Below, piece by piece: positions 4,241 through 34,990 of a DNA stretch of 64,000 nucleotides. The stretch is from the NCBI GenBank assembly GCA_000004985.1, contig GG738848.1. One strand, written 5' to 3'. Numbering within the stretch: position 1 is the first letter of the stretch; each line of letters starts with the position of its first letter. The position numbers were made by a program, and so were the translations under genes. The notes under the pieces are model-generated. The model was given only the letters and a program-made list of their open reading frames with translations, ran no database searches and had not been told where the DNA came from. This stretch comes from Naegleria gruberi. Its lineage: Eukaryota.

Positions 4241-4378
4241 TAACCCAAATGTTAAAAGTTTGCATATGGTTGGGTGGGCTTAATAACAAGAAATAGTATT
4301 GGCTTAATGGAATGAGGTGCATTCATCATGATAAAGCCGTAGCCATTTCATACCTTAAAATAATAATCAGTAATTAAA

Positions 4379-15783: not shown

Positions 15784-16331
15784 TTTTGTATATTATTTAC
15801 AACAACAATATTAAATAATTTAAATAATTTAAATAAATTGATGATCATTATCATAATTCTCAAAATCGAGAGCAGTAAATATTAATTTGCTGTTGATGAT
15901 CAGAAAAAGTCGCGTTAAGGAAAAACTGAGCAAACAAGTGTTGTTATTTTTTTTGATTTGTTTTTGTGGCCCTAAAAAGGAAAATTAGCTGGAATAGATC
16001 AACCCAAATATGGTACTTTCATTTTACTGTAAAAATCTGAGAAAAATATTCTTTAATTTCAAAATTGCATTGCTAAAAGTTGAATAGATGAAACTAAACT
16101 CTGATTCTGATAAAGTGCTAATATTATTAATTTTGGAAATTAGTAAGTTTTGAGATTTTCTTTTTAGAGCTCTTCCACCTGCAAGAATATATATCTGGCA
16201 GTGTGTACCAGGATCCTCTGTGGTTGTAATTTGTTTCTATTGTAATTTGCTCACGTTATAGAGAATCACGTTTCGAAATCCCTTTAAATTTGTCACACTG
16301 GTAAATTAAACTTGCTTATTCGAAACAAAAA

Positions 16332-17675
16332 ATGCTTTCTTTCGCCTTTAGAGTTTTTAAACCTTTAATTTATAGTGTAGTTGGACTTTTTCAACCTTCT
16401 GATCCTGCTGTATCTTCCTCCTATGTGAGATTGGCCAATACTCTATTCGAATTACATTTTAATTATATTGAGAATAAGAAACCAATTTCCAATTTCTTTA
16501 TAACTTGTGAGTTTGATGGTAAAACAGTGAGAAAGCAAGTATTACTAAAAGGTGATGGAAAACGTGATGGTGGTATCTATCATCATGCAGTTGAACTTCA
16601 TCCACAAAAGTTAATGTCCATTAAGGTGGAAACCGAAAGTGGAAGGTTGTTATTCGAAGCTCTAGATATTAATACCAACAGTTTCAAACAAGAAACTCTA
16701 ACATTAATGGAAATGTCTATTCCAGACAGAAAGCAAGAACTATTCGATTCTATTAAGGACAAATTAATTTCCATTTCCAAAAATGTAATCATTGGATCCA
16801 TGTCCATCACATTTAGTGGCAAATCATCCCTCCTCAACAATATCTTCAAAACACTTGGTTCCAAACATGTTCCATTCCCAGTAGGAAGCACAGAACAAGC
16901 AAGAGAAGCTTACAAACTATTTTATGGAAGTTATCCAAGTAATGATTATTTGTCGTCGTTCACCACTGAAATTCTCAAGAAAAATGTGGATGATGTTGAG
17001 GGAATGGAATCTCTTTGGATTTGGGATTTGCCTGGAATTTTCGAATTTACCACTGCCGGTCAAATGCCAACACTTTTGAGTTTGACAGATGACTTATTGA
17101 ACAAGTTATTTGTTACAAAGAATGGAATGATGAAATTGAATGGTAACCAAGAGGATAAAAAAGTCAATCGAGAAGAAGAAGAATTCTCACTGAAACCTCA
17201 AGCTTTAATTGTAACTCTTCCATTGGAGAATAGTTTCGCCTATAATTCCACAAGTGATAATAATATTGCGTTATATTTTGGAAGAATTTCTGGATTTCTA
17301 TCAAAGGAGCATAATGTGAAATCTGTTTATTGTTATACCAAGATAGACGAAACTTATATTTACCAGAATTACATTTCAAAGAATGTGGGAATTACTAGCA
17401 TGTTGGACGAAACTGATCCTACACCAGATCAAATGAAACTCAATTTACTCAAACAATTCCATGAATGGGATATTTTAGAAAGAAAGGATAATAATTTTCC
17501 AGATATGGTTAACAGTGATCATACAATTCCTTTTTTATCAATCAATTCCCCAACTAAGGAAATTGACAACTTTTTCCAAGTTCAATATTTGGAAGTGTTA
17601 AATCTGGCATTGGATAAATGTTTCCAGAAGAAATCATCCCTCTCATGTGAATCCATTTGCATTGTTAAAAAATAA
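16332..17675 (+). CDS. IIGP/IRG-family (immunity-related GTPase)-like protein with a non-canonical P-loop
   Basis: 447-aa ORF. Ordered motifs: NVIIGSMSITFSGKSSLLN (IIGP1 has NVAVTGETGSGKSSFIN), LWIWDLPGI (IIGP1 FWDLPGIG, G3) and YCYTKIDE (IIGP1 VRTKVDSD, G4). The first Gly of GxxxxGKS is displaced by a 2-residue insertion. Confidence 0.45.
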   Translation: MLSFAFRVFKPLIYSVVGLFQPSDPAVSSSYVRLANTLFELHFNYIENKKPISNFFITCEFDGKTVRKQVLLKGDGKRDGGIYHHAVELHPQKLMSIKVETESGRLLFEALDINTNSFKQETLTLMEMSIPDRKQELFDSIKDKLISISKNVIIGSMSITFSGKSSLLNNIFKTLGSKHVPFPVGSTEQAREAYKLFYGSYPSNDYLSSFTTEILKKNVDDVEGMESLWIWDLPGIFEFTTAGQMPTLLSLTDDLLNKLFVTKNGMMKLNGNQEDKKVNREEEEFSLKPQALIVTLPLENSFAYNSTSDNNIALYFGRISGFLSKEHNVKSVYCYTKIDETYIYQNYISKNVGITSMLDETDPTPDQMKLNLLKQFHEWDILERKDNNFPDMVNSDHTIPFLSINSPTKEIDNFFQVQYLEVLNLALDKCFQKKSSLSCESICIVKK

Positions 17676-18577: not shown

Positions 18578-18589
18578 TTTTTTGTTATT

Positions 18590-18685
18590 CGAAACGTGAT
18601 TTTCCTCCTTACCAATCTTAACATTCCTTGAAACGTGATTTTTCAACAATCCTAAACAGACTGTCATCAGAAAACGTGATTAAAC
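18590..18685. promoter_or_regulatory. Three evenly spaced (~40 bp) copies of GAAACGTGATT in the shared upstream region of divergent genes 17804(-) and 18700(+)
   Basis: Copies at about 18591-18601, 18630-18640 and 18671-18681. The same motif occurs as a triplet at 27006-27085 and once at 16264-16275. Confidence 0.5.
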
Positions 18686-18699
18686 TTTAAAAAAAAACG

Positions 18700-19401: not shown

Positions 19402-19434
19402 ATATGGATTAGAATAAAAATATATAAAATTGGT

Positions 19435-22400
19435 TTATTGAAAGGATCCAAGTTGAATCTTGTTGTGTTTTTGAACCATTGCATAGAACATGGATGAGTG
19501 ATCGTTTAATAATTGTGTTGGACTTGCAAATTCTTTCACAATTCCATCATCAATGACCACAACTTTATCATAATCCAAAATAGTTTCCAATCGGTGGGCA
19601 ACACAAATGACAGTACATTTCTGGGAGAATTCATTTCTCAAGACTTGTTGGATTAGTTTGTCAGTTTCCAAATCGCAGAGAGCTGTGGCTTCGTCCAATA
19701 CGAGAATTTTACAGTTTCGAATAAGTGCTCTGGCAAGACAGAGTAATTGTCTTGTACCTGCTGAGATGTTTTCTCCATTTTCTGATATTTCCATTCCTAA
19801 TCCTGTTGCTCGAGGTTGAATCTCATCACTTTCTTCATTCGAAAGTTGGAATAATTTATCTTTCATTCCAACCTTTTCCAATGCATTCCAAAGCTCCCGA
19901 TCTGTAAATTGTGAATATCCATCAAGATTATCTCTTAATGTTCCTTTAAAGAGTGTTGGCTGTTGAGGAATGATACACAAGGCACTTCTCAAAGTTTCTA
20001 AAGGAACATTTCTAATATCAATTCCATCTACCAAAATGGAAGATTCTGATTCAATTTCTTGCATTCTGAATAGAGATTGGATTAAACTTGATTTTCCACA
20101 ACCTGTCCTTCCACAAACAGCAATTCTTTCCTTTTCCTTAATAGTTAAATTAATTCCTTTAAGAACTAATTTGTTAGTCACTTGATTATTCGACTCTAAA
20201 CTCTTGTACCTCATTAATACATTGTTGAAATTAATGTTTCCCTCACTCGCAAAGCTTTCAACTTTTTCACCTACTCCCTCAGGTTCATATTTTTCACTTT
20301 CCAAATTTGAATATTGGTCAATTCTTTGAATGGAAACTAAACCATTTTCTATCAATACCAATAAATAAGACAAGTAATATAAAACATCAAAGTTTGAAGT
20401 AGCTTGTAGAATAATCATTCCAACAAGTGGACCTCCAGATGCTAAAACACTTGACATGATAATAACCGAAACGGCAAGACCACCCAATATTTCATTTCGA
20501 ATATCAAAGTATTTGTACATGCACTGAATATTATATCTCACGTGTACGTGGTTATCTGCCTTAAATTCGAATAAATCTTTCATTAATTCTTCCTTTCCAA
20601 ATGCACGAATGGTTTGAAGGCCATTAAGAGTTTCGGATATTTGAGAACTGAGTGGAGATGAATAAATTCCAGACAATGTTGACAATTCTCTCAATGTAAC
20701 TCTAAAGTAACTTTGATAATACAAGATTATTGGGAATAAAATAACTAAAATAAATATGGAAAATGGAGAAAGTATTAAAATGGTAACTAGGCCAAAAATC
20801 CAAAACATGAGAACTGGAACAAACTCTCTCAACAATGAATTCAACTCACTATCAATTTGATTAGTATCTCTGGTAAATCTTGCAATAATTCTACCCACTG
20901 GTGTATTATCAAAAAAGGTAATACAAGAATTAACAATACTGTTCATGAGTTTTTCATGAAGTTTCTTTGCAGTATTCAAATAATGGGATAGAGCAAGGAA
21001 ATTACCCATCACATCTACGCATACATAAAGAATAGCACTTCCTAAATAAGTCATTAAATAGAAAATTAAAGTGAAATTTTCATATTTCTCATCAGTTGAC
21101 CATTTGGTAAGGACATATTGATGAACAACATCAAGAATTTTGAATATAATTCCAAGAATGCAAATAACTACAAATATTGGCTTGTTATAACCAACAGCAA
21201 ACTTGAGAAGAGTTTTGTAATTTTCCCAAACTGTTCCCTTCACTCGTTGTTCTTCTTCTATGGATGTGAATTTCTCCAATGATTCGTCATCATTTGGAAG
21301 TAGTTGAAGAGTTGGCTTGATTTCTTCTTGTTCAGTTTCGAATAAATCTTCTTCGACTTCTTCCTTCTTTTTACTAAACTCATCAATCAAATTTCTAAAT
21401 ACATTATTGGAATCTTGATAAAGTTCATGATAAGTTCCATTCTGAATGATTTTTCCATCTTCAAATACAAGAATTCTCTCTGCTTTGTCAATAAAGTGAA
21501 TTTGATTCGTGACCATAATTGTTGTTTTACCAGCTTCCAAAAGTGGAAGTATTCCAAATTTCATAATATGATCTGCAGTGTGAACATCAACTGCTGAGAG
21601 AGGATCATCCAATAGATAAACATCTGCGTTCGAATAGAGACATCTTGCTAAGGAAACTCTCAATTGTTGACCTCCTGACAAGTTGACACCATTTTCACCA
21701 ATCATACTCAAATCTAAAATTTCTTTTGAGATTTGATAAAGATCAGTTTCTAAATTGCATGCGTGTAATACTTTGGAATATCTTTCCGAATTAAATTCTT
21801 CACCAAAAGTTATATTTTCACGAATAGTTTGGTTTCTAATCCAAGAATCTTGTGAACAGTAGGCATATTTGAGTTTAGATTGTTTTTGGAAAGTGGAACA
21901 GCCATCATCTATTAGTCTAGTTTCTCCCAATAATGAAGATAAGAAAGATGACTTTCCAGAACCGACCTTTCCAATAACACAAATAAACTCACTCTTTCTA
22001 ATTGACAAATTCATTCCTTTCAAACAAGAAACAGGTTCAGTAGAATCAACAGGATCCCAAGTAAATGAAGCATCTTTCATTTCTGTAATTATTTCATCAT
22101 TTTCCACTTGGGCAATTTGGTGTGAAACTTCTTCAGCTCTCAGAAACTTGACAATTCTGTTAAATCCAGTTACTGCTCTTGAAACTTGTAATGCAGATGA
22201 AGGAAGTTGAATTGTTTCATATCTTACCAATTCCAAAGCATTAAGGAAGGAGAATGCAAGACTAACACTCAAAGATTGATTGCTGAAATAACAAAAATGG
22301 ACGAAACTGACAAATGAAATGAAAGGAGCAAAAGTATTCCACAAGCATTCCATTCCTGCGTCTGAAATGAACCCCTTCTTAATATTTCTCATCTCAGTTT

Positions 22401-23391
22401 CTCTAATATTCATAATCTTGTCTTTAAATAGTTTCTCCATTGTATAATATTTGACAAATCTCATAGCAGAAACTAATTGTGAAATAATTTCACTTCTTTC
22501 GTCCTGGTTCGACTCTATAATCTTTTCCATTCTCTGCTCCCAAATCATACAAACAATAGAAATTGGAATAATCACAAGTAAAATGGCAGAGAATCCAACA
22601 AGTGCTGAAATTCCTAGAAGAAATATTGAGAAGGAAATGGAAACTGAAATGTAAACAAAAGCTCCAATGATAATTTCAACATGATAGTAAAACCATTCGA
22701 ACTTTTCAGTGTCAGTCGTTGCAATATTCATAACCGTTCCAGTTGAGTATTCTTGCTTGGAGCTAGAGTTTAGTTTAAGTGTCTTGTTGTAAATTGCATT
22801 AGAAAGGGAACTCTTTGTAAACTCTCCAATTTCTTGAGCAATGAATAGGCCGTGATCTGCACAGAATGTTTTCACAACCTTACAAATAAATAGGATTATA
22901 CAAAAACCAACAATATATGAAACTGATTCAATATTCAAGTCATTATTGGAAAGTGTACTTTCACAATATATCAAAATAATGTTCAAAATGAATAATCTTG
23001 CAACTTCTGAACCAATCAATATCAATTTCAATACAAATGCCCAAGCAATCTGTAAAAAGTACAACTTGACAAAAAACCAAGCACATTTCCATGTGGAAAT
23101 TTCAGCTGAATTCTCAAATGTTTCAATAAACTTTTCAAAGGGTTTCGAGCTTGATCTAAATCCCCATGATGGCTGCATCTTGGTCAATTCATTCAATTCT
23201 AAAAATCCTTTAGAAAAAACCTTCTTAATCATTGGCTGTACTGAACTAAACGTGAATGCACTCCATAAATGTCCAATCGAACATCCATTAGAATATGCTG
23301 TTTCGTCATATATCGTTTCCTTCCTTCTAAATGTTGAAGAGCATTGGGACATTTCAAGTTGTTGTTGTGTTTTTTTGATATTTTCATTCAT
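19435..23391 (-). CDS. ABC transporter, ABCC/MRP-type full transporter (TMD-NBD-TMD-NBD)
   Basis: 1318-aa ORF. NBD1: Walker A GKVGSGKSSFLSSLLGE and signature LSGGQQLRVSLARCLY. NBD2: Walker A GRTGCGKSSLIQSLFRM and signature-like ISAGTRQLLCLARAL. Two 6-TM blocks. Confidence 0.9.
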   Translation of the reverse strand: MNENIKKTQQQLEMSQCSSTFRRKETIYDETAYSNGCSIGHLWSAFTFSSVQPMIKKVFSKGFLELNELTKMQPSWGFRSSSKPFEKFIETFENSAEISTWKCAWFFVKLYFLQIAWAFVLKLILIGSEVARLFILNIILIYCESTLSNNDLNIESVSYIVGFCIILFICKVVKTFCADHGLFIAQEIGEFTKSSLSNAIYNKTLKLNSSSKQEYSTGTVMNIATTDTEKFEWFYYHVEIIIGAFVYISVSISFSIFLLGISALVGFSAILLVIIPISIVCMIWEQRMEKIIESNQDERSEIISQLVSAMRFVKYYTMEKLFKDKIMNIRETEMRNIKKGFISDAGMECLWNTFAPFISFVSFVHFCYFSNQSLSVSLAFSFLNALELVRYETIQLPSSALQVSRAVTGFNRIVKFLRAEEVSHQIAQVENDEIITEMKDASFTWDPVDSTEPVSCLKGMNLSIRKSEFICVIGKVGSGKSSFLSSLLGETRLIDDGCSTFQKQSKLKYAYCSQDSWIRNQTIRENITFGEEFNSERYSKVLHACNLETDLYQISKEILDLSMIGENGVNLSGGQQLRVSLARCLYSNADVYLLDDPLSAVDVHTADHIMKFGILPLLEAGKTTIMVTNQIHFIDKAERILVFEDGKIIQNGTYHELYQDSNNVFRNLIDEFSKKKEEVEEDLFETEQEEIKPTLQLLPNDDESLEKFTSIEEEQRVKGTVWENYKTLLKFAVGYNKPIFVVICILGIIFKILDVVHQYVLTKWSTDEKYENFTLIFYLMTYLGSAILYVCVDVMGNFLALSHYLNTAKKLHEKLMNSIVNSCITFFDNTPVGRIIARFTRDTNQIDSELNSLLREFVPVLMFWIFGLVTILILSPFSIFILVILFPIILYYQSYFRVTLRELSTLSGIYSSPLSSQISETLNGLQTIRAFGKEELMKDLFEFKADNHVHVRYNIQCMYKYFDIRNEILGGLAVSVIIMSSVLASGGPLVGMIILQATSNFDVLYYLSYLLVLIENGLVSIQRIDQYSNLESEKYEPEGVGEKVESFASEGNINFNNVLMRYKSLESNNQVTNKLVLKGINLTIKEKERIAVCGRTGCGKSSLIQSLFRMQEIESESSILVDGIDIRNVPLETLRSALCIIPQQPTLFKGTLRDNLDGYSQFTDRELWNALEKVGMKDKLFQLSNEESDEIQPRATGLGMEISENGENISAGTRQLLCLARALIRNCKILVLDEATALCDLETDKLIQQVLRNEFSQKCTVICVAHRLETILDYDKVVVIDDGIVKEFASPTQLLNDHSSMFYAMVQKHNKIQLGSFQ

Positions 23392-24621
23392 TGAAAAACG
23401 TGTTTTTGTGTTTTTTAAAGGATAACCGAAGGTTACCGTTCAAGAGGTTCAAAGGTGAATTTGAAAGTAGTAAGGAAGCATTTCTTGTTGATTTCAAGGG
23501 AATCTCATTGTAAACTAATGAGACTCAGATATTGTGGTTAATTTGAACCTCAATCTTGAAAATGAGAATTTCAAAATTGATTGCCATTGGAATGTTTAAA
23601 TTTGATTGAATATTTAGAAGTGAATTATAATAATTCATGTTGAATGAATACTCCGTGATCCTCAGGAGGTTAAATTTACTAATTCTCAGCAATTGATGAA
23701 GGTGTGATGGGTGCTTCTAATGTTGGACATGATGATGTTTCGAATCGGAATGGTTACATGTTGTTATAATAATAATTCGTAATTCGTTTCTTGAGCAGAA
23801 GACTCCTTGTTGGGTTGTTTTATCCAATCATGATGTTGTTGTAGTGTGGATTTTTTTATTAAAATTTAAAAAGCAATCAAATTTGGCGGTTTTCCAAAGT
23901 AACGGTTTTTTCAAATAAAAAATAAACAAGACACTTTATTAGAGACATGTTCATCGTCTTGTTGTTTGTCTAAAAGCAATACACTTGGATGTACACCGTG
24001 TAGACGTGCGGTTCATACATGATACTAAAAGCTATTGGAGAACATAATATGATTATAATTTAATCAGGCTTTTTGTTAGTCTGGTACCATCATAATATTA
24101 AATTCAGCATCATAGCGGTTTAAGGATTCCTACTCTGCAGCCCTTCAATACAACATCTAACAACTATGACTCAAAATATGTTATATTGTTGATTGATGAA
24201 GAATGGAACGATAGCTACCAGGAAATGTTATTAGAAGGTAGATGAAATTTATATGGCAGATGATGCTCTTGTTGCTTCATCAGGCTTCGACACTTGGCAA
24301 ACAGACTAAGAGTTCGCAATTACCTTTTAATCATACTCAATATCCAGTTTATCACAATATAGGAAGAGCCCACTTTGCAATATCACATGTTTTATTATTA
24401 CAATATCATTTTGATATTGTTGAATATTATATAATTCAATTTAATGGTTTTCCACAAAAGAAGTCATGGTTTCGTTCATTTGAAAGGGTTAGAATGGTTT
24501 ATTACAATATAATACATGGTGGTGTATGCCATTTTGTGGCAATACTGAATTCGCGCTAAATGTGTTCAGTTAGAGAGAAATGGTTTCGTCAGAAGTATTG
24601 AGAGAAGAAGAAACGGTTTGT

Positions 24622-24795
24622 TTAGAATACCATTCCAATAACAGCCAAGATAGCAATCAATAACATGGCAGCAAATCCTTGTTCAGCAGCACCAGCATAT
24701 ACTTCAGATTCGTGATATTGAGCATTAATTGGTGAGGCAAAGAAGAACATGATACAAGCCAAGAGCATCATGACGAGGAAAGTTTGAGTGTTCAT
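24622..24795 (-). CDS. Small (57 aa) predicted secreted/membrane peptide: signal peptide plus C-terminal TM
   Basis: Minus-strand reading MNTQTFLVMMLLACIMFFFASPINAQYHESEVYAGAAEQGFAAMLLIAILAVIGMVF*. It is below the ORF-track size cutoff. Codon usage matches neighbouring genes. Confidence 0.3.
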   Translation of the reverse strand: MNTQTFLVMMLLACIMFFFASPINAQYHESEVYAGAAEQGFAAMLLIAILAVIGMVF

Positions 24796-25329
24796 TTTGA
24801 ATAGTTTTGATTAGTTTTGTTTAGTTGTTTTGTTTTGTTATTGTTTCAGAATCTAACGGCACAGTTGTTAATTTATAGGACTTTTCGAATACATACTGAA
24901 ATGGTCAAGTGGTTCCGTAAATGCTTCCATTACGAAATTTGTGTTCATCACTACAATTTAAGAAAACGGCTGCCGATATGAATTTTCTTCAAATGTAGTA
25001 TTCAGATAACAACATCGGCAATAATACAACCATTCTCAAATTCATCCACTTCTCAAAAAGACGAAACTAATCTCTACATGAATTTGAGAGAATCAAATCA
25101 TGCGATATCAAAACGAATATTACACTCACTTTCCTAACATTCTATTTTATTGGCATATTAGAAAAATTCAATATGGAATTGGAAACACAAGTTTACAATT
25201 CTAAACATCTCTTAATATATTGACCTGACTTGAAAAACTTTACAAATCTCTTTACAAAGTCTTTCGGTGTAAGGAGGAATTGTTGTGGCATTTTGATCGA
25301 TATCCGTAAAATTAAATAATAAAATGGTT

Positions 25330-25402
25330 TGCTGACGGACGGGATCGAACCGGCGACCAATGGCTTATTAGACCAACGCTCTACCGACTGAGCTACGCCA
25401 GC
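25330..25402 (-). tRNA. tRNA-Ile (anticodon AAT)
   Basis: Reverse complement: GCTGGCGTAGCTCAGTCGGTAGAGCGTTGGTCTAATAAGCCATTGGTCGCCGGTTCGATCCCGTCCGTCAGCA. 7-bp acceptor stem, GTAGAGC D-arm, anticodon loop CTAATAA, GGTTCGATCC T-loop, one C-U mismatch in the T-stem. Confidence 0.8.
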
Positions 25403-25567
25403 TTACATTCATTACAAATAACCTATAGAATTATGTAATAAAACAAATAACAATTTGTGCGAGATCCAATTTATCCTAGCTGTTAGCAATTCATTATTAA
25501 AATTGTTTTAATACAGCAGATCTCGTCAATCATCACAAGTTGATAGTGTGGTTGTATTGTAATGTAA

Positions 25568-25648
25568 GTTGAGGTGGCCGAGTGGTTAAGGCGCCAGCCT
25601 GCTAAGTTGGTGGAGAAATCCGCGTGGGTTCGAATCCCATCCTCAACG
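25568..25648 (+). tRNA. tRNA-Ser (anticodon GCT), long variable arm
   Basis: GTTGAGGTGGCCGAGTGGTTAAGGCGCCAGCCTGCTAAGTTGGTGGAGAAATCCGCGTGGGTTCGAATCCCATCCTCAACG. Class II tRNA with 3-bp D-stem, anticodon loop CTGCTAA, 13-nt variable arm, GGTTCGAATCC T-loop. Confidence 0.85.
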
Positions 25649-25741
25649 ATTTTGCTTGTTGGGTAAAATAAATTTTTGAACTGCTTTACTTGTTATTTCC
25701 ATTTTGATTTTCTTCTGAAGAAGCATGTACAATATATTTCA

Positions 25742-26947
25742 TTATTTATTGAAAGAAGTATTGTCAAATGCAACTTTTGTGTCTTGAAACAAATCTTGAA
25801 GAAATGAATAATCGACATCATTGTCGACCACCTTTTCCACAACTGGGACTGGATTTGAAACATTGATAAATATCAATTTCTTCAGTTTCTCATAGAATTC
25901 AGAAATAATATCAGCAAGAGGTTGGACAAGAACTTGGAAGACACCTGTCAGAATATTCCAAATAAATTTCCAAGTAAATGAAACTGTGGCTGCACCCACT
26001 TTGGTGGATTCAATTAAATATTTGACAAATGATTGCAAATATCCATTAAAATTATAGTTGAATGAATCCTTTTCCTTAAATAGTGAAATAATTTGAGTAA
26101 TTGTGAAATAGGCCAATCCTGCTACAGCTGTGATAAACAAAGATTTGAGATCTAATTTGATTTTCTTCATGGCCAAAGCAGGAACTAGAACTGAAGTAAT
26201 GGCCAGCAATTTTTCATAGCTGAAAGTTTTTAAAAGGTAAACTTCTGAAACAAGTTCCCAAATCTTTCCTAAAAATTGAGAAATGGTTTCGTCTTGAAAA
26301 TCAAATGGACTTGAAATTGGGACTACCTTATCTCCACTACATAGTAATGCCAATTGTTTGAAATTAATCAAATTCTTTGCCTTTTTGAAAAGAGTTTTCA
26401 TATCTGAACGTTGGTCAACTGTGGCATACGGTTGACAGTTCAGTGTCAAGATAGAAATGTCCTTGTCAGGATACTGTTTCTTCATCTTGTAAGCAACTTC
26501 ACAGGCAACGCTTCCTCCAGCTTTATAGCCAGTTACAATAATGTTGTAATTGGTTGTTTTAACTGAAGGCGCAAACTTTTCATAAATCATATTCGAAACT
26601 TGGCTAATAGTTTCCAAATCCTCCTTCTCTTCATTAAATGACTTGCAAACCAAAACGATCAATTGCTTGCCATCAAATTGAATAAATTGTCCAAGAGAAA
26701 TTCTATTCTCAAAGTTACACGAAACGGTCGAATCTGCAATGAGAGGTTTTACGTCTTGTTGCGAAACAACTTGTGCAAGCCATTTCTTTGTTGGAAAATT
26801 GTCAATGTCAATGACTTGCAATTCTTCGAATGGTTGGCTAGTCACGACAGGAATGAGAGATTCTAATGAATGGACCGATTCTAATGGTGTTAGTGATTCT
26901 ACTGATTCGACTGAGGATGTGAACCATCCTGTTAACCAACTTGACAT
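25742..26947 (-). CDS. Lipase class 3 (alpha/beta-hydrolase) domain paralog with a non-canonical nucleophile elbow
   Basis: 401-aa ORF. ...TTNYNIIVTGYKAGGSVACEVAYKM aligns to the lipase_3 core VVVTGHSLGGALA, with GYKAG in place of GHSLG (Lys at the Ser position; a GGSVA follows). C-terminal amphipathic/hydrophobic region. Confidence 0.55.
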   Translation of the reverse strand: MSSWLTGWFTSSVESVESLTPLESVHSLESLIPVVTSQPFEELQVIDIDNFPTKKWLAQVVSQQDVKPLIADSTVSCNFENRISLGQFIQFDGKQLIVLVCKSFNEEKEDLETISQVSNMIYEKFAPSVKTTNYNIIVTGYKAGGSVACEVAYKMKKQYPDKDISILTLNCQPYATVDQRSDMKTLFKKAKNLINFKQLALLCSGDKVVPISSPFDFQDETISQFLGKIWELVSEVYLLKTFSYEKLLAITSVLVPALAMKKIKLDLKSLFITAVAGLAYFTITQIISLFKEKDSFNYNFNGYLQSFVKYLIESTKVGAATVSFTWKFIWNILTGVFQVLVQPLADIISEFYEKLKKLIFINVSNPVPVVEKVVDNDVDYSFLQDLFQDTKVAFDNTSFNK

Positions 26948-27005
26948 TTTTTTGAAGATTTGAAGCTTGACAGTTGCATTAGAGAATGATTAGTTGTGCT
27001 TCACG

Positions 27006-27085
27006 ATCACGTTTTGATTAATAACCCAAAAAATCTTAAACGTGATAATCATTTTGTTCAAAGTGTCAAATATCAATCACGTTTT
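27006..27085. promoter_or_regulatory. Triplet of AAACGTGAT motifs (mixed orientation, ~35-40 bp spacing) in the 172-bp divergent promoter between the two lipase-3 paralogs
   Basis: atcacgtttt at 27006-27015, aaacgtgat at 27038-27046, atcacgtttt at 27076-27085. Confidence 0.5.
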
Positions 27086-27119
27086 ACATTTTAAATAATT
27101 AATTCGAAAAAAAATAGAA

Positions 27120-28250
27120 ATGACACTCACCAACATTGATATTGAAAATAAAGAGATTTTAAAGTGGCTATGCAAAAGAACAAACTCAATCTATAGCTCA
27201 ACTTTGTTGCCAGAATTGTCAGAACTTCCGTTGAAATCTGGCAGCTTGATATTTCATGATAACAATAATTCAGTATTGGCAGTAGCAGATATATATGATT
27301 CAATAGGATCAGTAGTGGTTACTTGTAAAGGAAGTCAATCAATCTATGACTGGGTGTCAAATTTCACTGAATTTCCAACAACTTCTAATCAAAATTCTAT
27401 TCCTGATTTCATTTACGAGAATGCATTGAAAATTTCACAGAAATTTGATAGAGAATCGCCAAATATTTTCAATAATAAGAAGGTGATTTGTTGTGGGCAT
27501 AGTAGAGGTGCAGGAATTGCTTCTTATTTGGGCTATCATATTGCTTCAAATTCCAAGAACTGTCAAGTGTCTGTTTTGACATTTAGCTCAATTCCATATG
27601 CCAATGATCAATTTAAAACTGCTTTCGACAATGTAATTTACAAAGCTAAGAATATCATTTCAATTCTAGATCCACTTCAAACTTTATGGGTTTCTAGAAA
27701 TATCCCAGGAGAAACTAGAATATTGGAATTCACCTATCCAGGTGCATCAGCAATTGCACTCTTTACCATTCCACTAACAGCATTCGTTAAGGAGATTCAT
27801 TGTCTGTTTGACAAAATTTTCCATTTGCAAGGAATTTCTGAAATATTGGAATGTGCAACATCTTTTGCCTTATTTAAAGGTACAAGTCAATTCTTGTCCT
27901 TTTCTGGACTGGTGACCATGTTTCTTATGGATGTTGGAGTTAATGTATTCCAAGGAAAGTGTCACAAGATGGATTATACACAGCATGTAGTTGGAGGTGG
28001 CGTTGAACCTCTTATTAAGGCAGTTTTTGAGTTGCTGTCTGATGTCAACAACAAGACAACCAACCTGGTGAATTTGATAACTAAGTTTGTGATGGGACCA
28101 TTATTTGGATTGTTGAAGAAACTTTTCGTGAATGTTGTTGATCTGATCGATCAATTATGGAACGCCCTAAAGGAATTTGTGGGACAAGCTGTTAATTTCT
28201 TTAAATCTAGTTTATCTTTGATTTCCTATCATCCAATAGTGCAAAATTAA
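27120..28250 (+). CDS. Lipase class 3 (alpha/beta-hydrolase) domain protein with canonical nucleophile
   Basis: 376-aa ORF. KKVICCGHSRGAGIASYLG matches the GHSxG lipase_3 elbow. C-terminal hydrophobic/amphipathic segment as in the divergent paralog. Confidence 0.6.
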   Translation: MTLTNIDIENKEILKWLCKRTNSIYSSTLLPELSELPLKSGSLIFHDNNNSVLAVADIYDSIGSVVVTCKGSQSIYDWVSNFTEFPTTSNQNSIPDFIYENALKISQKFDRESPNIFNNKKVICCGHSRGAGIASYLGYHIASNSKNCQVSVLTFSSIPYANDQFKTAFDNVIYKAKNIISILDPLQTLWVSRNIPGETRILEFTYPGASAIALFTIPLTAFVKEIHCLFDKIFHLQGISEILECATSFALFKGTSQFLSFSGLVTMFLMDVGVNVFQGKCHKMDYTQHVVGGGVEPLIKAVFELLSDVNNKTTNLVNLITKFVMGPLFGLLKKLFVNVVDLIDQLWNALKEFVGQAVNFFKSSLSLISYHPIVQN

Positions 28251-28276
28251 AATTTGTAGTAATATCCTTATTCTTT

Positions 28277-29521
28277 TTATAATGAAAAATGATAGAATTC
28301 TCTCGTAAAACTCAAAGGACGGCTATTATATAATTTACACAAAGATTTCAATTCAAATTTGTAAAAACCTGTATCAATAATTCCTCCATAGCTATCTCTT
28401 GAATATGCTCCATGATACCTATGAAATTCAGCAATATTTTGCACAATCAATCCATAACCTCCTCCTTGATAAGGGCATTCCAATATTTTTGGTTTAAACT
28501 TGGAATAAATAATATCAAAGGGATGGACTCTTGAACTCTTCATATGAACCCCTCCAGAAGAAGTTGTCATTCCATAGAAGAAACATCCAATTAATACTCG
28601 GTAGATTCCAACATCTTTGCAATCTTGAAAAGTGTTCGAATTATTCTTGCTGTAAATACGACTTTTGAGAAATCCAGGAGTGTAGTATTGGTAAATTTGG
28701 TCAATTGTGGTCAAGTTTCTTGTATAGCAATTTATGTAAGTCACATCCAGCATGAAACATGTCTCAGTTCCGTCGAGTTTTCCCATTAAAAAATAATGTA
28801 CCAAGTTGGTTGTAGAACTTGCTGTGTCAAAAGTTTTGAGTTTGATGTAAACTTGTTTCTTTTCTTGATCCACATCAAGAATGTCAACCAATCTTGAAAG
28901 TATTTCATTTTCTAACATTAAATTGACATTCTTGCAATCTGAAATATTCAAATATTTGACAATCTCCAAAATGGAATCAAATTTCAAATCAAATTCAATG
29001 TGCATAACATTTGTATTCTTCCGTTCAGCACCAATGATTGAATAGAAAGTCTCTTTCTTCATTCGTTCATTCCCCATATTAAAATTGTTCTTGACTTCGT
29101 CTAACGAATTGCAATCATTCTTTTCCAAATCAAAACTCTTTGTATGATCAAAACCACATTTGAATCGAATAATTATCTTTGATCTCTTAATATTTACAAC
29201 ATGATCATGACCATTTGGCATGACTTTTCCCTCCTGTATAGATTGCTCCATCAAACCCTCATGATCATTCGATCCATCACTCACCACTGGAGCATAATTT
29301 CTACTATTCATAAATTGCTCCAAAAGTTGTTGATCTAAATTTTCTCTCTTCTTCCGATCATGAAAAGTAATCCTTGTCTTGACAATAATTCCGAAACTCT
29401 GCAAAATTTCAATCAGGGATGATTTATCAGCATTCTTCTTGTTATTATTATTTGTATTCTTTTCCCTCCTCTTGTGATGATCAGAAGCTGATGAACCTCT
29501 CTTTACATCATGTTGAGACAT
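28277..29521 (-). CDS. Hypothetical protein with basic N-terminus (nuclear-localisation-like), domain not recognised
   Basis: 414-aa ORF. KRREKNTNNNNKKNADK basic N-terminal stretch. Gly-rich C-terminal region (SSGGVH...QGGGYG). Confidence 0.45.
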   Translation of the reverse strand: MSQHDVKRGSSASDHHKRREKNTNNNNKKNADKSSLIEILQSFGIIVKTRITFHDRKKRENLDQQLLEQFMNSRNYAPVVSDGSNDHEGLMEQSIQEGKVMPNGHDHVVNIKRSKIIIRFKCGFDHTKSFDLEKNDCNSLDEVKNNFNMGNERMKKETFYSIIGAERKNTNVMHIEFDLKFDSILEIVKYLNISDCKNVNLMLENEILSRLVDILDVDQEKKQVYIKLKTFDTASSTTNLVHYFLMGKLDGTETCFMLDVTYINCYTRNLTTIDQIYQYYTPGFLKSRIYSKNNSNTFQDCKDVGIYRVLIGCFFYGMTTSSGGVHMKSSRVHPFDIIYSKFKPKILECPYQGGGYGLIVQNIAEFHRYHGAYSRDSYGGIIDTGFYKFELKSLCKLYNSRPLSFTREFYHFSL

Positions 29522-30997: not shown

Positions 30998-33556
30998 ATG
31001 ACATCCGTCAATAAGAACAAGGCTCTGTTTGAAAAGCTGGATGCCAGCGCAGCCAAAGACCAGCACATTTTGAATGGTGGAGCTACAACTACTGTACAAA
31101 AGAAACCATCATCAATTTCAACATCCAATAATTCGTCTAGTTTCGGCAAAGCAAAATCATCAAATAATAATAATACTAAAACAACCAATAATAATAATAC
31201 CAAAACGACAAATTCATCATCCACTTCATCATCATCCTTTCTAAACAAGACTAATAGTTCACCATCATTGAAATCGAATAATAATTCGAATAGTGCTTCA
31301 GCAACCAAGACCACACCAACTCCACCTCCTTTCAAACAAACCACCACAACTCCCACTGCGCCACCAAAAACCAGCACAGTTTCCACCACTTCTGTCAATT
31401 CACTCAACAAACTATCAACCAACAGTCAATCAAGTCCAACCTTGAAAAGTACTTCAACCACCAGCAGCAGTATTAACAGTCCTAGTGGTAGCACACGTAA
31501 AGCACCTCCTCCACCATCATCCTCTTCATCATCAGCATCATCAACTTCTCCTAAACTGCCATCAACACCAAGTACGTCAGCCATCAAAAAAACATCAAAC
31601 ACTCCAAGTACTCCAAGCACACCAATTTCTGCACTTGTGGACAATGATTACTTTAGTTCAATTACTAAAGATGTTCCAAAGAGTGAAATTAAAATATCTG
31701 GTCCTAAAGGATTGACACACGTTGGTCATGCCTCAACTAATGATCCAACTGCATTGTTTAAGAAAAATGCTCGATCTCAAACGATTACTGGTGGAGAACT
31801 TTCGAATAGTTCAACAAAGAAGAGGGATGGAGTGAGTTTTGATGTTCCTGTAAGTGAAAAGAGTGAAAAGAAGGATGGAGAAGCATCTGGTTCGAGTGCT
31901 AAACAAGTTTTGAATCAGGCAACTGATAAATTGAAAAGTGGAATGTCCAAGATGACCAATTTGGTCAAGACTACTTGGGCTGCTGTTGGAAATGATAGTC
32001 CATCTACTCCAACCAGTAGCTCCAGCTCTAGTGGTAGTAGCTTAACAAGTTCTAAGAAATCAAAGCCAAAGAAATTGCCACCAGTTCCAAAACCTGCAAA
32101 TTCAGTTCGTGTTGCAAATACCAAAGTTGTGAGTATTTACATTCCAGAGAATGATGCTTCCGAACATGATCGTGAATTGGAAAAGACCAGAACTGAATTG
32201 GAAAAGAGAAAGACCATGATGAACGAGAAAATTAAGGAAGAGGAAAAGAAGAAATTAGCAGAAATGAAACAAAATATTCTCCAAGAGGAGCAAGCCAAGA
32301 AGAAACAATTGGAAGAAACATTACAAAAGGAAGAACGTGCCAAATTGGAAAAACTTGAAAAGGAACTAGCCAGTTTATCAGACCAAAAGAGAGAAGAACA
32401 ACTTAAACAATTGAGAAATGAAGAAGCCAGAAGAAAGGAGAAAATGCTCTCTGATTTGGACAGAGATGCCAAGACTAAGATTAAGGAAATCGATAGTCAA
32501 GTTCGTGCTGAAAAAGAAGATCGTTTGAGACAACTCGAAGAGGAAATGAGAAAAGAAGAAGCTCTTGCCAGAAAGGACATTGAAAAGAAATTCAAGGAAG
32601 AGGAATTGAAAAAGAAACAAGAACTTCAAGCCAAGATTGAAAAGGAAGAAAAGGAAATGTTGCAACGTATTCAAAAGAAACTCCAGGAAGAGGAAGAAAG
32701 AAAACTCAAAGAGCTCGCTCGTAAAATGGAAGAAGAAGAACAGCAACGATTGGAAAAGATTAAAGCCAACTTGAAAGAGATTGAAAATGCTAAAAAGCAA
32801 ACACCTCAACATCAAGAAGTTTCACAATTGAGAAGAAAGTCAGTCACTGCTCGTCTCATGCAGGAAGAAGAAGAAAAGATCAAACAATTAAGTCAACAAA
32901 TTAAACAAGAAGAAATGAAACGAATTGAAGAATTGGAAAAGAAGATGAAACAAGAAGAACAAGAAAGAAAGCAAAGAATGAAACAAGAACTCGAACGTCT
33001 CGAAGACGAACAACGTCAACTCTTAATGCAACAATTGGAAGAAGAGAAACGAAAGCTCCAAGAAAAATTCCAAAAGGAAGCCGAAAAGGAAGCTGAGGAA
33101 CACCGAAAGAAACTCCTAGCTCAAAATTCTGCAATCATTTCGAATAATGTTTCAGTTCCACCACCTCCTCCATCTTCTTCATCATCAGGTTCTATTCCTC
33201 CACCTCCAGGTGGTAGCTCTCTTCCACCTCCACCTCCAACTGCCATTCTTCCTGTCTCTACTCCAAAAATTGAAATTCACATTGATTTACCAGAACTCTC
33301 TGGAAGAGGTGACTTGTTAGAAAGTATCAGAAAGGGAGCTAGTTTAAAGAAAGTCACTACAGAACAAATCAGCAAACCTCAATCCTCAGGAAATGCCATC
33401 ACTAACATGCTCAAAAAAGCCCTCGACCAAAAACGAATTCACATGGCAGACGAAAGTGATGAAGAAGAAAGTGAAGACGAAGATGATGAATGGGATTCAG
33501 AAGCTCACAATTTAATTGAATCTAAAAAGAAATCATTAGTCAACTCTGATGAATAA
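30998..33556 (+). CDS. Arp2/3 nucleation-promoting-factor-like protein: S/T/N-rich N-terminus, long E/K coiled coil, poly-proline (FH1/profilin-binding-like) region, WH2-Central-Acidic tail
   Basis: 852-aa ORF. PPPPPSSSSSGSIPPPPGGSSLPPPPP, then WH2 GRGDLLESIRKGASLKKV, an amphipathic C-region NMLKKALDQKRIHMA and acidic DESDEEESEDEDDEWD with a conserved Trp. This is the classic VCA arrangement. The antisense ORFs here are low-complexity artefacts. Confidence 0.65.
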   Translation: MTSVNKNKALFEKLDASAAKDQHILNGGATTTVQKKPSSISTSNNSSSFGKAKSSNNNNTKTTNNNNTKTTNSSSTSSSSFLNKTNSSPSLKSNNNSNSASATKTTPTPPPFKQTTTTPTAPPKTSTVSTTSVNSLNKLSTNSQSSPTLKSTSTTSSSINSPSGSTRKAPPPPSSSSSSASSTSPKLPSTPSTSAIKKTSNTPSTPSTPISALVDNDYFSSITKDVPKSEIKISGPKGLTHVGHASTNDPTALFKKNARSQTITGGELSNSSTKKRDGVSFDVPVSEKSEKKDGEASGSSAKQVLNQATDKLKSGMSKMTNLVKTTWAAVGNDSPSTPTSSSSSSGSSLTSSKKSKPKKLPPVPKPANSVRVANTKVVSIYIPENDASEHDRELEKTRTELEKRKTMMNEKIKEEEKKKLAEMKQNILQEEQAKKKQLEETLQKEERAKLEKLEKELASLSDQKREEQLKQLRNEEARRKEKMLSDLDRDAKTKIKEIDSQVRAEKEDRLRQLEEEMRKEEALARKDIEKKFKEEELKKKQELQAKIEKEEKEMLQRIQKKLQEEEERKLKELARKMEEEEQQRLEKIKANLKEIENAKKQTPQHQEVSQLRRKSVTARLMQEEEEKIKQLSQQIKQEEMKRIEELEKKMKQEEQERKQRMKQELERLEDEQRQLLMQQLEEEKRKLQEKFQKEAEKEAEEHRKKLLAQNSAIISNNVSVPPPPPSSSSSGSIPPPPGGSSLPPPPPTAILPVSTPKIEIHIDLPELSGRGDLLESIRKGASLKKVTTEQISKPQSSGNAITNMLKKALDQKRIHMADESDEEESEDEDDEWDSEAHNLIESKKKSLVNSDE

Positions 33557-33652
33557 AAAATTCAAGTAACACAAATAATAAATTTATAGTTTACAAAAAA
33601 TTAGCGCGCCCAAAACTTTCCACCAAAATTTAGAAAATCAAAATCAAAAAAA

Positions 33653-34555
33653 ATGCCAAAAGCCGCCAGCAAAAAATCCACAGAATCAAATTCTTCGTCA
33701 TCACCAAGCACTTCACAGAAGACAACTGCTCCTGCTGTAAAACCACTCACCAAGCCAAAGATTAAATCCTTTCCGTGCGCACCAGCTTTTGAATGTAAAA
33801 GTGGTGAATTATTGTGGGGTCAACTTCAACACATGATCAAAGGCTCTTCGGCTACGAGTCATGATACTTCGAATGGTCCGATCACTTCAGGATTTGGAGG
33901 AGGAACCATTTTGCAGAGCACTTTTAGATATAGATTGGCTGCTAGGAAGGGAAATTGGATTGTGGAGAGATTTGAATCGGAGAGTGGTTTTGGATTTGTT
34001 GTTCATCATGAAGATTTGAGTGGACAGGAATTGTTGGATCGATGTGCAAAGATTGGTATTTCGAATGGACAGACACACGATGATCACAATATTGTCTATG
34101 TGAATCGTTATGATTGGAGTTATCACAGTGGAGATCAAGATGAAGTTTCGAGGGAGGTCAAGCAATTTATTACTCCACCAAAGAAGAGTAAGAAGAAGAG
34201 TGATTCAAGTGATGAGGAAGATGACTTCTCATGTGACGATAATGAATTTTTGGATGAAATTGGTCAACTCTTTGCTGGTAGATTGATTTTGTTGGATGCT
34301 CCTGAATACCAATCATATATGAAATTGGTTGCTTCTGGTAAACATCCTGAGAATGGAGATTGTGTACAATTTAAATCATCTACTGGAACTTTTTGTGGTG
34401 CTCATCTTTCAGATGCAGATACAGAATATGAGTTAGGTTGGATGATTTTCTCTGGTGAAAAGCATAAGGATTTCCCACAAGATGATGAATTTGTAGGATT
34501 TGTCTATGATTCTTCATATTGTGGATTGGAAGAGGGTCCTTTCACTATTGTATAA
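33653..34555 (+). CDS. Hypothetical protein
   Basis: 300-aa ORF. Ser-rich N-terminus, acidic internal stretch. No recognisable motifs. Confidence 0.45.
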   Translation: MPKAASKKSTESNSSSSPSTSQKTTAPAVKPLTKPKIKSFPCAPAFECKSGELLWGQLQHMIKGSSATSHDTSNGPITSGFGGGTILQSTFRYRLAARKGNWIVERFESESGFGFVVHHEDLSGQELLDRCAKIGISNGQTHDDHNIVYVNRYDWSYHSGDQDEVSREVKQFITPPKKSKKKSDSSDEEDDFSCDDNEFLDEIGQLFAGRLILLDAPEYQSYMKLVASGKHPENGDCVQFKSSTGTFCGAHLSDADTEYELGWMIFSGEKHKDFPQDDEFVGFVYDSSYCGLEEGPFTIV

Positions 34556-34990
34556 TAATATTGTAAAGTTTTAATTTTTACTGTAAATTGCCTTTATTGA
34601 CATGTTTCTTGGCTAATTGAATTTACATTTAGTCGGGCCATTCAAAATTTAAAACAATTGTGTGGTGAGGTTCTAAAAGTGAAGGATAATTGAAAATTTT
34701 GGCATTTATCCAATATGTCCAATAAGTTTTAACCTAAAACAAATCCCTCGCACAAAACTCTGCTGCAGAATAATAGAAAAAAAACACCATGCTTCATTTC
34801 ATCCTGTTGTTATTGCAACTTGTATTCAGTTCATTCTCGTTTTTTGAGATTTTGGATGATGAGTTGATTTATGGTGATCACCAGCAGGAGAGTATTGATT
34901 CTTTGCCAGATTTATAAATTCCCGTTCTGAAATCTTTTGCCTTATTTTGAAGAAATTTGTGTATTGTACAATTTATTTCAAAGATGACAC

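What the first reader, a model, noticed from the sequence alone, without database searches (positions are those of the whole stretch)
26948..27119. The same ACGTGAT motif triplet in the divergent promoter of the two lipase-3 paralogs, and a single copy upstream of the IIGP-like GTPase
atcacgtttt (27006), aaacgtgat (27038) and atcacgtttt (27076) are again spaced ~35-40 bp apart, in the 172-bp region between head-to-head lipase-3 paralogs. A cgaaacgtgatt copy (reverse orientation, 16264-16275, with a tcacgtt half-site at 16250) sits ~60 bp upstream of the IIGP-like GTPase ATG. Outside these sites and coding sequence the 9-mer was not seen elsewhere in the 64-kb window, although the scan was by eye. 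The genes sharing it (lipase-3 pair, IRG-like GTPase, a membrane protein and gene 18700) may form a co-regulated set.
Basis: seen in the sequence. Interest (0 to 1): 0.55.

Follow-up and report, generated by a model that had tools for sequence, protein, structure and literature searches.

The report
Clustered promoter motif in Naegleria genes
A nine-base word, AAACGTGAT, sits in one to three exact copies just upstream of five neighbouring genes of the amoeba Naegleria gruberi and upstream of a related gene elsewhere in its genome, so it is most likely the docking site of an unidentified gene-regulatory protein, an ordinary kind of element but undescribed for this organism.

Summary
The window is Naegleria gruberi nuclear DNA. 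AAACGTGAT occurs 8 times against about 0.5 expected. Seven copies lie within 150 nt of the start codons of five genes. These sit in two short head-to-head promoters (122 and 172 bp, three copies each) and one single-copy promoter. None of 31 other candidate genes has a copy. The eighth copy lies inside one of the five genes.

One-mismatch variants and the palindromic E-box CACGTG are at background. The copies occur in both orientations, and flank similarity ends within 13-17 nt. This argues against a repeat, a mobile element or an RNA signal.

An unlinked N. gruberi-like contig carries two more exact copies upstream of a 21%-identical paralog of the GTPase-like gene.

The best reading is clustered binding sites for a sequence-specific transcription factor that controls a small set of lineage-specific genes. 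Neither the factor nor co-expression could be tested. No Naegleria relative with orthologous promoters could be reached.

The gene labels hold only in part. One gene is a class-3 lipase. Its neighbour lacks the catalytic serine. "IIGP-like" rests on motifs alone.

In passing, a second 9-mer, TATTCGAAA, is about 25-fold over-represented in coding and non-coding DNA and remains unexplained.

The parts
27006..27014 (-). Motif copy 1 of the lipase-pair promoter (ATCACGTTT on the + strand). It lies 59 nt from ATG 26947(-) and 106 nt from ATG 27120(+).
27038..27046 (+). Motif copy 2 (AAACGTGAT). It forms a perfect 9-nt inverted repeat with copy 1 (23 nt between arms) and a 17-nt, 88% complementary inverted repeat with copy 3.
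27076..27084 (-). Motif copy 3 (ATCACGTTT), starting 44 nt before ATG 27120.
26948..27119 (.). 172-bp head-to-head promoter between the two lipase-like genes. It also holds AATTCGAAAA at 27101-27110, about 18 nt before ATG 27120.
25742..26947 (-). Lipase_3-like gene (401 aa) without the catalytic serine (GYKAG). It is a distant paralog of the 27120 gene (21% identity, E 2e-7).
27120..28250 (+). Class-3 lipase gene (376 aa; Pfam Lipase_3 E 2.3e-12; GHSRG nucleophile elbow).
18592..18600 (+). Motif copy 1 of the 18.6-kb triplet, fused to the TATTCGAAA word (TATTCGAAACGTGATT).
18631..18639 (+). Motif copy 2 of the triplet. It shares the 13-nt GAAACGTGATTTT with copy 1.
18672..18680 (+). Motif copy 3 of the triplet, starting 28 nt before ATG 18700.
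18578..18699 (.). 122-bp head-to-head promoter between the membrane-protein gene 17804-18577(-) and gene 18700-19401(+). The longer ORF start at 18667 would translate the motifs, and ATG 18577 has the usual A-run leader, so 18577 is taken as the real start. This choice of start is an inference.
16265..16273 (-). Single exact copy 59 nt before ATG 16332 (TTTCGAAACGTGATT on the - strand). A TCACGTT partial copy lies at 16251-16257.
16332..17675 (+). P-loop GTPase-like orphan gene NAEGRDRAFT_62815 (447 aa). It contains the one coding copy of the motif at 16560-16568.
16317..16325 (+). TATTCGAAA 15 nt before ATG 16332. The same word lies near the ATG in several window genes and may be a core-promoter element (inferred).

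Best explanation
AAACGTGAT (read on the other strand, ATCACGTTT) is the binding site of a sequence-specific transcription factor of Naegleria gruberi.

Shown: it is an exact, asymmetric 9-bp word with an ACGT core. It sits in clusters of three sites spaced 32-41 bp apart in two very short bidirectional promoters, and as single or paired sites in others.

Inferred: the clusters recruit several factor molecules and switch both flanking genes on together under some condition. The controlled set is small and made of lineage-specific genes: a class-3 lipase, its catalytically altered neighbour, members of a Naegleria-only P-loop GTPase-like family, and two small membrane proteins. The proximal ATTCGAAA word and the A-rich leader probably form the basal promoter on which this upstream element acts.

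Not determined: the factor (a bZIP or bHLH protein because of the CACGT core, or a Myb protein because of AACG), the inducing signal, and whether the factor activates or represses.
For: - Enrichment: 8 copies against 0.46 expected, 0 of 100 shuffles reaching 8. No 9-mer in 60 shuffles reaches its p-value.
- Position: 7 of 8 copies lie between -23 and -137 of the ATGs of five genes, and 0 of 31 other candidate genes has one. The chance of this placement is 2e-7.
- Rank: among 9-mers in non-coding DNA that are not part of a single local repeat, it is second only to TATTCGAAA and ties with the simple repeat ACAACAACA.
- Orientation: both orientations occur relative to the downstream gene (+++ at 18.6 kb, -+- at 27.0 kb, - at 16.3 kb). 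This is typical of a DNA-level upstream element and not of an RNA signal or initiator.
- No repeat unit: similarity between copies ends within 13-17 nt, and the three promoters share no 8-mer other than the motif and ATTCGAAA.
- Replication at an unlinked locus: contig L122 is a 4.3-kb N. gruberi-like ENA contig, and other contigs of the same assembly are 98.5-98.8% identical to the window. It has two exact copies plus AAACGTGAA upstream of ATG 425 of P0132. The expectation is 0.04 copies and P is 8e-4. L122 has no nucleotide match to the window.
- Retention across old paralogs: P0132 is a 21%-identical paralog of the window's GTPase-like gene, and the two lipase-like genes are also only 21% identical. 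The motif has therefore been kept next to genes that diverged long ago.
Against: - There is no expression, binding or transcription-start data.
- No orthologous promoter from another Naegleria species could be reached. The motif-bearing genes have no detectable homologs outside N. gruberi.
- All seven sites are exact, with no excess of one-mismatch variants. This is sharper than most binding-site collections and could instead reflect recent copying.
- All window copies lie within 11 kb.
- The ABCC transporter gene between the clusters has only a one-mismatch copy next to its ATG.
- Another remnant of the GTPase-like family (L123) has no copy.
- The Willaertia magna ABCC locus has none in 24 kb, although orthology there is unproven.
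Confidence: 0.62

Rival explanations
1. The copies are leftovers of local sequence copying (small duplications, inverted duplications or gene conversion between nearby promoters) and have no regulatory role.
For: All sites are exact and variants are not enriched. All window copies lie within 11 kb. Copies 1 and 2 at 18.6 kb share 13 nt, and copies 2 and 3 at 27.0 kb share 15 of 17 nt as an inverted repeat.
Against: Similarity stops at 13-17 nt while the spacers of 23-32 nt are unrelated. Orientation patterns differ between the clusters. The motif recurs at an unlinked locus with no other sequence similarity. The flanking genes are old, with paralogs at 21% identity. Neutral 9-mers would have decayed and left one-mismatch relics, and none are seen.
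Confidence: 0.12
2. It is a general core-promoter or start-site element (like an initiator or TATA substitute) and not a gene-specific regulatory site.
For: The proximal copies are very close to start codons (-23, -28, -44). Three of the nine non-coding copies (seven in the window, two in L122) are fused to the widespread TTCGAA word.
Against: It is present at only 5 of 36 candidate genes. It occurs in multiple copies, in both orientations, and at distances from -23 to -347. Core elements are single, oriented and fixed in position.
Confidence: 0.08
3. The motif has some other DNA-level role, such as a boundary or insulator site, a replication-related site, or a silencer that marks a block of rarely expressed lineage-specific genes.
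For: The copies are confined to a contiguous 11-kb block of orphan-type genes. Several of these genes are absent from the public N. gruberi protein set.
Against: The copies sit precisely in the promoter gaps and not at the edges of the block. The motif recurs upstream of a paralog elsewhere. No feature of the sequence points to such a role.
Confidence: 0.08
4. Chance over-representation.
For: The raw count of 8 is reached by some CG-containing 9-mer in 4 of 60 shuffles. Those words are more A/T-rich than the motif.
Against: The composition-corrected family-wise test gives 0 of 60. The placement probability is 2e-7. The independent replication in L122 has P of 8e-4.
Confidence: 0.02

Closest known systems
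Yeast Pho4 low-affinity site CACGTTTT (UASp1 of PHO5) and other class-B bHLH half E-boxes. This comparison is from memory, not from a tool.
   Same: The core CACGTTT is identical. Several sites per promoter act as an upstream activating sequence, independent of orientation.
   Different: Pho4-type factors also use the palindrome CACGTG, which is at background here (3 copies against 3.5 expected). The flanking AT- is invariant here. No bHLH protein was examined. Naegleria is not a fungus.
SREBP / TFE-type E-box ATCACGTGAT (from memory)
   Same: ATCACGT, seven of the nine bases, equals one half of that palindrome. A lipase gene is among the targets.
   Different: The second half is TT instead of GAT, so the site is not a palindrome. 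No evidence links the genes to sterol or lysosome control.
ACGT-core elements bound by bZIP factors (plant G-box and ABRE; T/G-box AACGTG bound by MYC2) (from memory)
   Same: The site has an ACGT core, and AACGTG is contained in the motif. These elements are often repeated in stress-inducible promoters.
   Different: The flanks differ from every named box. The factor is unknown.
Clusters of one kind of site in a shared divergent promoter, such as the four Gal4 sites of yeast GAL1-GAL10 (from memory)
   Same: Three to four copies of one site in the gap between two head-to-head genes, presumably serving both.
   Different: The promoters here are much shorter (122-172 bp against about 680 bp). 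The sites are exact 9-mers and not degenerate 17-mers.
ISRE and GAS elements in promoters of interferon-inducible IRG GTPases (from memory)
   Same: Short elements repeated in promoters of P-loop GTPases of a fast-evolving family.
   Different: The sequences are unrelated. Homology of the Naegleria proteins to IRGs is not established.

Membership tests
Transcription-factor binding site / upstream regulatory element | Non-random enrichment in promoter DNA of a subset of genes | tested here: met
   8 copies against 0.46 expected. 7 copies lie within 150 nt of 5 of 36 candidate starts. The family-wise test gives 0 of 60 shuffles.
Transcription-factor binding site / upstream regulatory element | Works in either orientation and at variable distance | tested here: met
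   Both orientations occur, at distances from -23 to -347. Only the arrangement was tested, not the function.
Transcription-factor binding site / upstream regulatory element | Retained next to related genes at independent loci | tested here: met
   L122 has two exact copies upstream of a 21%-identical paralog and no other DNA similarity to the window.
Transcription-factor binding site / upstream regulatory element | Bound by a protein, and mutation changes expression | not testable with these tools
   This needs a gel shift, DAP-seq or reporter assays.
Palindromic E-box (CACGTG) bound by bHLH dimers | Palindromic CACGTG core enriched at the sites | tested here: not met
   All sites are CACGTT. 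CACGTG occurs 3 times against 3.5 expected, and none is in these promoters.
Core promoter element (initiator or TATA-like) | One oriented copy at a fixed distance in most genes | tested here: not met
   It is present at 5 of 36 genes, in multiple copies and both orientations.
Tandem repeat, mobile element or MITE | Similarity extending through the whole unit and flanks | tested here: not met
   Similarity ends at 13-17 nt and the spacers are unrelated. Tandem Repeats Finder reports nothing at these coordinates at score 100 or above.
Known RNA family | Match to an Rfam model | tested here: not met
   Only a 5S rRNA gene and two tRNA genes were found in the window.
IRG / IIGP GTPases (gene 16332-17675) | Significant match to Pfam IIGP or to a solved IRG structure | tested here: not met
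   There is no IIGP hit even at E up to 1, only MMR_HSR1 at E 0.03. PDB sequence search gave nothing relevant.
IRG / IIGP GTPases (gene 16332-17675) | G1 GxxxxGKS, G3 DxxG and G4 (N/T)KxD motifs | tested here: inconclusive
   The family alignment keeps S..GKS..LN, D.P..F (DLPG in the window protein) and TKID/SKID/SQID. The first glycine of G1 is missing. The fold model was unusable at pLDDT 37.
Class-3 lipases (genes 27120-28250 and 25742-26947) | Pfam Lipase_3 above the cut-off, with a GxSxG nucleophile | tested here: inconclusive
   The 27120 gene meets it: 47.4 bits against a cut-off of 22, with GHSRG. The 25742 gene does not: 17 bits, with GYKAG.

The most novel reading that the evidence does not exclude
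The motif defines a dedicated, inducible regulon of Naegleria-only genes: IRG-like myristoylatable P-loop GTPases, lipase-like membrane proteins, and perhaps the neighbouring ABCC pump. This could be a cell-autonomous response to ingested or invading microbes, driven by a lineage-specific factor. The fused form TTCGAAACGTGATT would tie the regulon to the pervasive and unexplained TATTCGAAA word, which may itself be a new genome-wide signal in this amoeba.
Probability: 0.1. Interest if true: 0.7.

Novelty: new member of a known kind. Interest (0 to 1): 0.38.

Why it matters
The full-text searches made here, by keyword and by sequence, found no gene-specific cis-regulatory element described for Naegleria or other Heterolobosea. 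An exact, easily scanned 9-mer that marks a handful of promoters gives three practical things. It is a handle for defining a regulon genome-wide. It is a bait for pulling down the factor with an oligonucleotide. And the 122-172 bp promoters could serve as compact, possibly inducible promoters for the genetic tools now being developed for Naegleria. It does not change any general concept of gene regulation.

Tried and rejected
- Metagenome scan for three direct copies. It returned at least 120 loci. Nearly all were tandem repeats or regular 32/33-bp arrays in unrelated, mostly higher-GC contigs.
- Homolog searches for orthologous promoters. The lipase gave no hit at all. The GTPase-like gene gave only itself in the word-indexed search and only N. 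gruberi paralogs in the full HMMER search. The best hit of the ABCC transporter was a 62% N. gruberi paralog, then Willaertia magna at 42%.
- DNA look-ups. The N. gruberi reference genome is not in the contig index. The Willaertia locus holds neither motif. L127 turned out to be an unrelated organism with 53% GC.
- Structure of the GTPase-like protein from a 4-sequence alignment. The model had pLDDT 37, so no fold search was run.
- Literature. No paper in the library mentions the motif in Naegleria or lists the locus tags. The repertoire of bHLH, bZIP and Myb factors in Naegleria could not be checked.
- Helical phasing of the sites. Spacings of 32, 38, 39 and 41 bp are not multiples of 10.5.
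- Poly(A) signal as an explanation for TATTCGAAA. N. gruberi uses AAUAAA (PMC11529991).

Full report
**Origin of the window.** Two ORFs are identical to Naegleria gruberi proteins. ORF 16332-17675 is XP_002682018 (NAEGRDRAFT_62815) and ORF 13672-15783(-) is NAEGRDRAFT_78219, both on a 712,659-bp scaffold. Four more ORFs match the same scaffold. The window is 33% G+C, CpG-depleted (observed/expected 0.5) and gene-dense. It carries typical Naegleria genes (LRR proteins, an adenylate cyclase, an ABCC transporter), a 5S rRNA gene and two tRNA genes.

**The observation.**
- AAACGTGAT occurs 8 times on both strands against 0.46 expected from dinucleotide-preserving shuffles, and none of 100 shuffles reached 8.
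- Under a first-order Markov expectation the Poisson p is 2e-7. In 60 shuffles no 9-mer of any sequence reached that value.
- The bare 7-mer ACGTGAT is only about 3-fold enriched.
- One-mismatch variants of the 9-mer are at background, and so is the palindromic E-box CACGTG.
- The unit is therefore the exact, asymmetric 9-mer. It usually has a purine before it and T after it.

**Where the copies lie.** I mapped all 36 candidate start codons. These are the non-nested ORFs of at least 140 aa, plus a 65-aa gene, with the 17804 gene started at ATG 18577.
- Only five genes have the motif within 150 nt upstream: 16332(+), 17804-18577(-), 18700(+), 25742-26947(-) and 27120(+).
- Two of the three regions are very short head-to-head promoters. 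One is 122 bp (18578-18699) and one is 172 bp (26948-27119).
- Each of these holds three copies, spaced 39/41 bp and 32/38 bp.
- The third region has one exact copy plus a TCACGTT partial copy 15 bp away.
- The eighth copy lies inside the coding sequence of the 16332 gene.
- Random placement would put 7 or more of 8 copies into such upstream space with probability 2e-7.
- Orientation differs between clusters: +++ at 18.6 kb, -+- at 27.0 kb and - at 16.3 kb.

I take ATG 18577 as the true start of the membrane-protein gene. The 30 codons above it merely translate the motif copies (KNHVS, ENHVS). ATG 18577 also has the A-run leader seen before most start codons in the window. This choice is an inference.

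**Is it a repeat or a mobile element?** It is not.
- The three promoters share no 8-mer other than the motif itself and ATTCGAAA.
- Similarity between copies stops at 13 nt (GAAACGTGATTTT, 18.6-kb copies 1 and 2) or at 15 of 17 nt (27.0-kb copies 2 and 3, as an inverted repeat). The spacers are unrelated.
- Tandem Repeats Finder reports only the 72-nt LRR coding repeats elsewhere in the window.
- Rfam finds no RNA family at these coordinates.

**Evidence from outside the window.**
- The motif-bearing genes are lineage-specific.
  - The lipase gave no database hit.
  - The GTPase-like protein has only N. gruberi relatives: P0130 (NAEGRDRAFT_58069, 31-33% identity) and P0132/P0133 (NAEGRDRAFT_58985-like, 21%).
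- The N. gruberi reference is not in the contig index.
- An ENA assembly, ERZ929261, contains N. gruberi-like DNA. Its contigs L125 and L126 are 98.8% and 98.5% identical to window positions 4222-6534 and 31267-35237.
- From the same assembly, contig L122 (4,329 bp, 34% G+C) carries P0132. Upstream of its ATG (position 425) it has AAACGTGAT at 78 and 253 and AAACGTGAA at 330.
- L122 has no nucleotide match to the window. About 0.04 copies are expected there, so two copies have P of 8e-4.
- The first L122 copy again reads TTCGAAACGTGATT. The same 14-mer occurs at window 16264(-) and 18588(+).
- The motif therefore accompanies two members of a gene family that are only 21% identical. It likewise accompanies two lipase-like genes that are only 21% identical. 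This argues for retention by selection and against recent copying.
- Counter-examples:
  - L123, a rearranged remnant of the same family, has no copy.
  - The Willaertia magna ABCC locus has none in 24 kb.

**Most likely mechanism.**
- Shown:
  - The element is promoter-restricted and orientation-independent.
  - It occurs in clusters of one kind of site in shared divergent promoters.
  - It recurs at an unlinked paralog.
- Inferred:
  - A sequence-specific factor binds each 9-mer.
  - Three sites within about 80 bp give cooperative occupancy.
  - Both flanking genes are switched together.
- Unknown:
  - The factor's family. The CACGT core recalls bHLH and bZIP sites. CACGTTTT is, from memory, the low-affinity Pho4 site, and ATCACGT is half of the SREBP/TFE E-box. 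AACG recalls Myb sites. I could not examine Naegleria's factor repertoire.
  - The inducing condition and the direction of regulation.
- Possible basal promoter: a proximal ATTCGAAA/TTTCGAAT word lies 14-24 nt before the ATG of three of the five genes (and of the 585 gene), followed by an A-rich leader.

**Rivals.**
- Neutral local copying (0.12) fits the exactness and the 11-kb confinement. It does not fit the unrelated spacers, the lack of decayed relics or the unlinked L122 copies.
- A core-promoter element (0.08) fails on copy number, orientation and the 5-of-36 distribution.
- Another DNA-level role (0.08) has no positive evidence.
- Chance (0.02) is excluded by the statistics above.

**The gene labels.**
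- The 27120 protein is a class-3 lipase by Pfam (47 bits against a cut-off of 22) with a GHSRG elbow.
- The 25742 protein aligns to it over 252 residues (E 2e-7). It scores below the cut-off and has Lys in place of the nucleophilic Ser (GYKAG), so it is probably a non-catalytic relative.
- The 'IIGP-like GTPase' has no IIGP hit.
  - Its family keeps a GKS P-loop, a D-x-P-G/A motif and a T/S-K/Q-I-D motif.
  - Three paralogs (P0130, P0132, P0133) begin with MGN, a possible myristoylation signal.
  - The AlphaFold model from four sequences was unusable at pLDDT 37.
  - The label is a reasonable lead but is not established.
- Several genes of this block are absent from the public protein set. These are both lipase-like genes, the ABCC transporter and the ORFs at 17804, 18700 and 28277.

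**Comparison with the known, and novelty.** The element behaves like an ordinary upstream regulatory site. In architecture it is closest to repeated sites in a shared divergent promoter. In sequence it is closest to ACGT-core and half-E-box sites. It fails the test for a palindromic E-box and for a core element. I found no report of this or any other gene-specific cis-element in Naegleria in the searchable literature. It is therefore a new member of a known kind. It is useful mainly as an entry point to Naegleria transcriptional control and as a candidate compact promoter.

**A second, unexplained word.**
- TATTCGAAA occurs 23 times against about 1 expected.
- The word is sharply defined, with no flank conservation and no excess of variants.
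- Thirteen copies lie in ORFs.
  - The seven sense copies use all three reading frames.
  - All six antisense copies read TCG-AAT (Ser-Asn) in the gene's frame.
- The other ten copies are intergenic, often close to start codons.
- TTCGAA is 5.4-fold over-represented among CpG contexts.
- Two copies occur in the 3.3-kb N. gruberi-like contig L123, and none in 24 kb of Willaertia.
- It is not the poly(A) signal, which is AAUAAA in N. gruberi.
- I have no explanation for it.

Noticed in passing
window, 23 sites (e.g. 380, 561, 1668, 5399, 16317, 18586, 18788, 19715, 20495, 21336, 24883, 43174, 54766): TATTCGAAA is an exact 9-mer with 23 copies against about 1 expected. It occurs on both strands, in coding DNA (sense in all three frames, antisense always as TCG-AAT) and in intergenic DNA. 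It has no flank conservation and no excess of variants. It is often 14-24 nt before start codons and is fused to three of the nine non-coding AAACGTGAT copies as TTCGAAACGTGATT. It is also present in the N. gruberi-like contig L123 and absent from 24 kb of Willaertia. I found no report of it and have no explanation.
   Followed up: partly
window 25742-26947 (-): The lipase-like neighbour has GYKAG where class-3 lipases have GxSxG, so the catalytic serine is replaced by lysine. It is probably a non-catalytic relative of the adjacent true Lipase_3 gene.
   Followed up: partly
window 17804-29521: Several long intact ORFs of this block are not in the 15-billion-protein collection, although neighbouring N. 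gruberi genes are. They are the ABCC transporter (1318 aa), both lipase-like genes and the ORFs at 17804, 18700 and 28277. The transporter's best hit is a 62% paralog. The reference annotation may lack these genes or model them differently.
   Followed up: partly
window 23396-23404, just upstream of ATG 23391 (-): A one-mismatch copy (AAACGTGTT; AACACGTTT toward the gene) lies 5-13 nt before the ABCC transporter's first ATG. It may be a degenerate site or chance.
   Followed up: no
window 2710-2832 (-), 25330-25402 (-), 25568-25648 (+): A dispersed 5S rRNA gene sits between two protein genes. A tRNA-Ile(AAU) and tRNA-Ser(GCU) pair sits just downstream of (beyond the 3' end of) the 25742 lipase-like gene.
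   Followed up: no
window 24600-24795 (-) with upstream 24796-24900: A small hydrophobic 65-aa ORF has a classic-looking promoter: TATTCGAAAAGTCCTATAAATT (TATA-like box about 82 nt before the ATG) followed by a long A/C-rich leader.
   Followed up: no
L122, L123, L125, L126 (ENA assembly ERZ929261, run ERR1078381, PRJEB11402): An assembly filed as a metagenome contains DNA 98.5-98.8% identical to this N. gruberi window, so it comes from a second N. gruberi-like strain or haplotype. It could serve for fine-scale comparison of promoters.
   Followed up: partly
L123 1686-2420: Fragments of the GTPase-like family lie in opposite orientations next to a tRNA gene and an Abhydrolase_3 esterase gene. 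The C-terminal piece is on the + strand and the middle piece on the - strand. This may be a rearranged pseudogene.
   Followed up: no
L050, L059, L072, L077, L089, L090, L114, L119 (metagenome contigs): Unrelated contigs, at least one from a human gut metagenome, carry AAACGTGAT three or more times at exactly 32- or 33-bp spacing with poorly conserved flanks. They were not examined. They may be 11-residue coding repeats or iteron-like arrays.
   Followed up: no
window 49767-49816: A run of 50 N marks an assembly gap.
   Followed up: no
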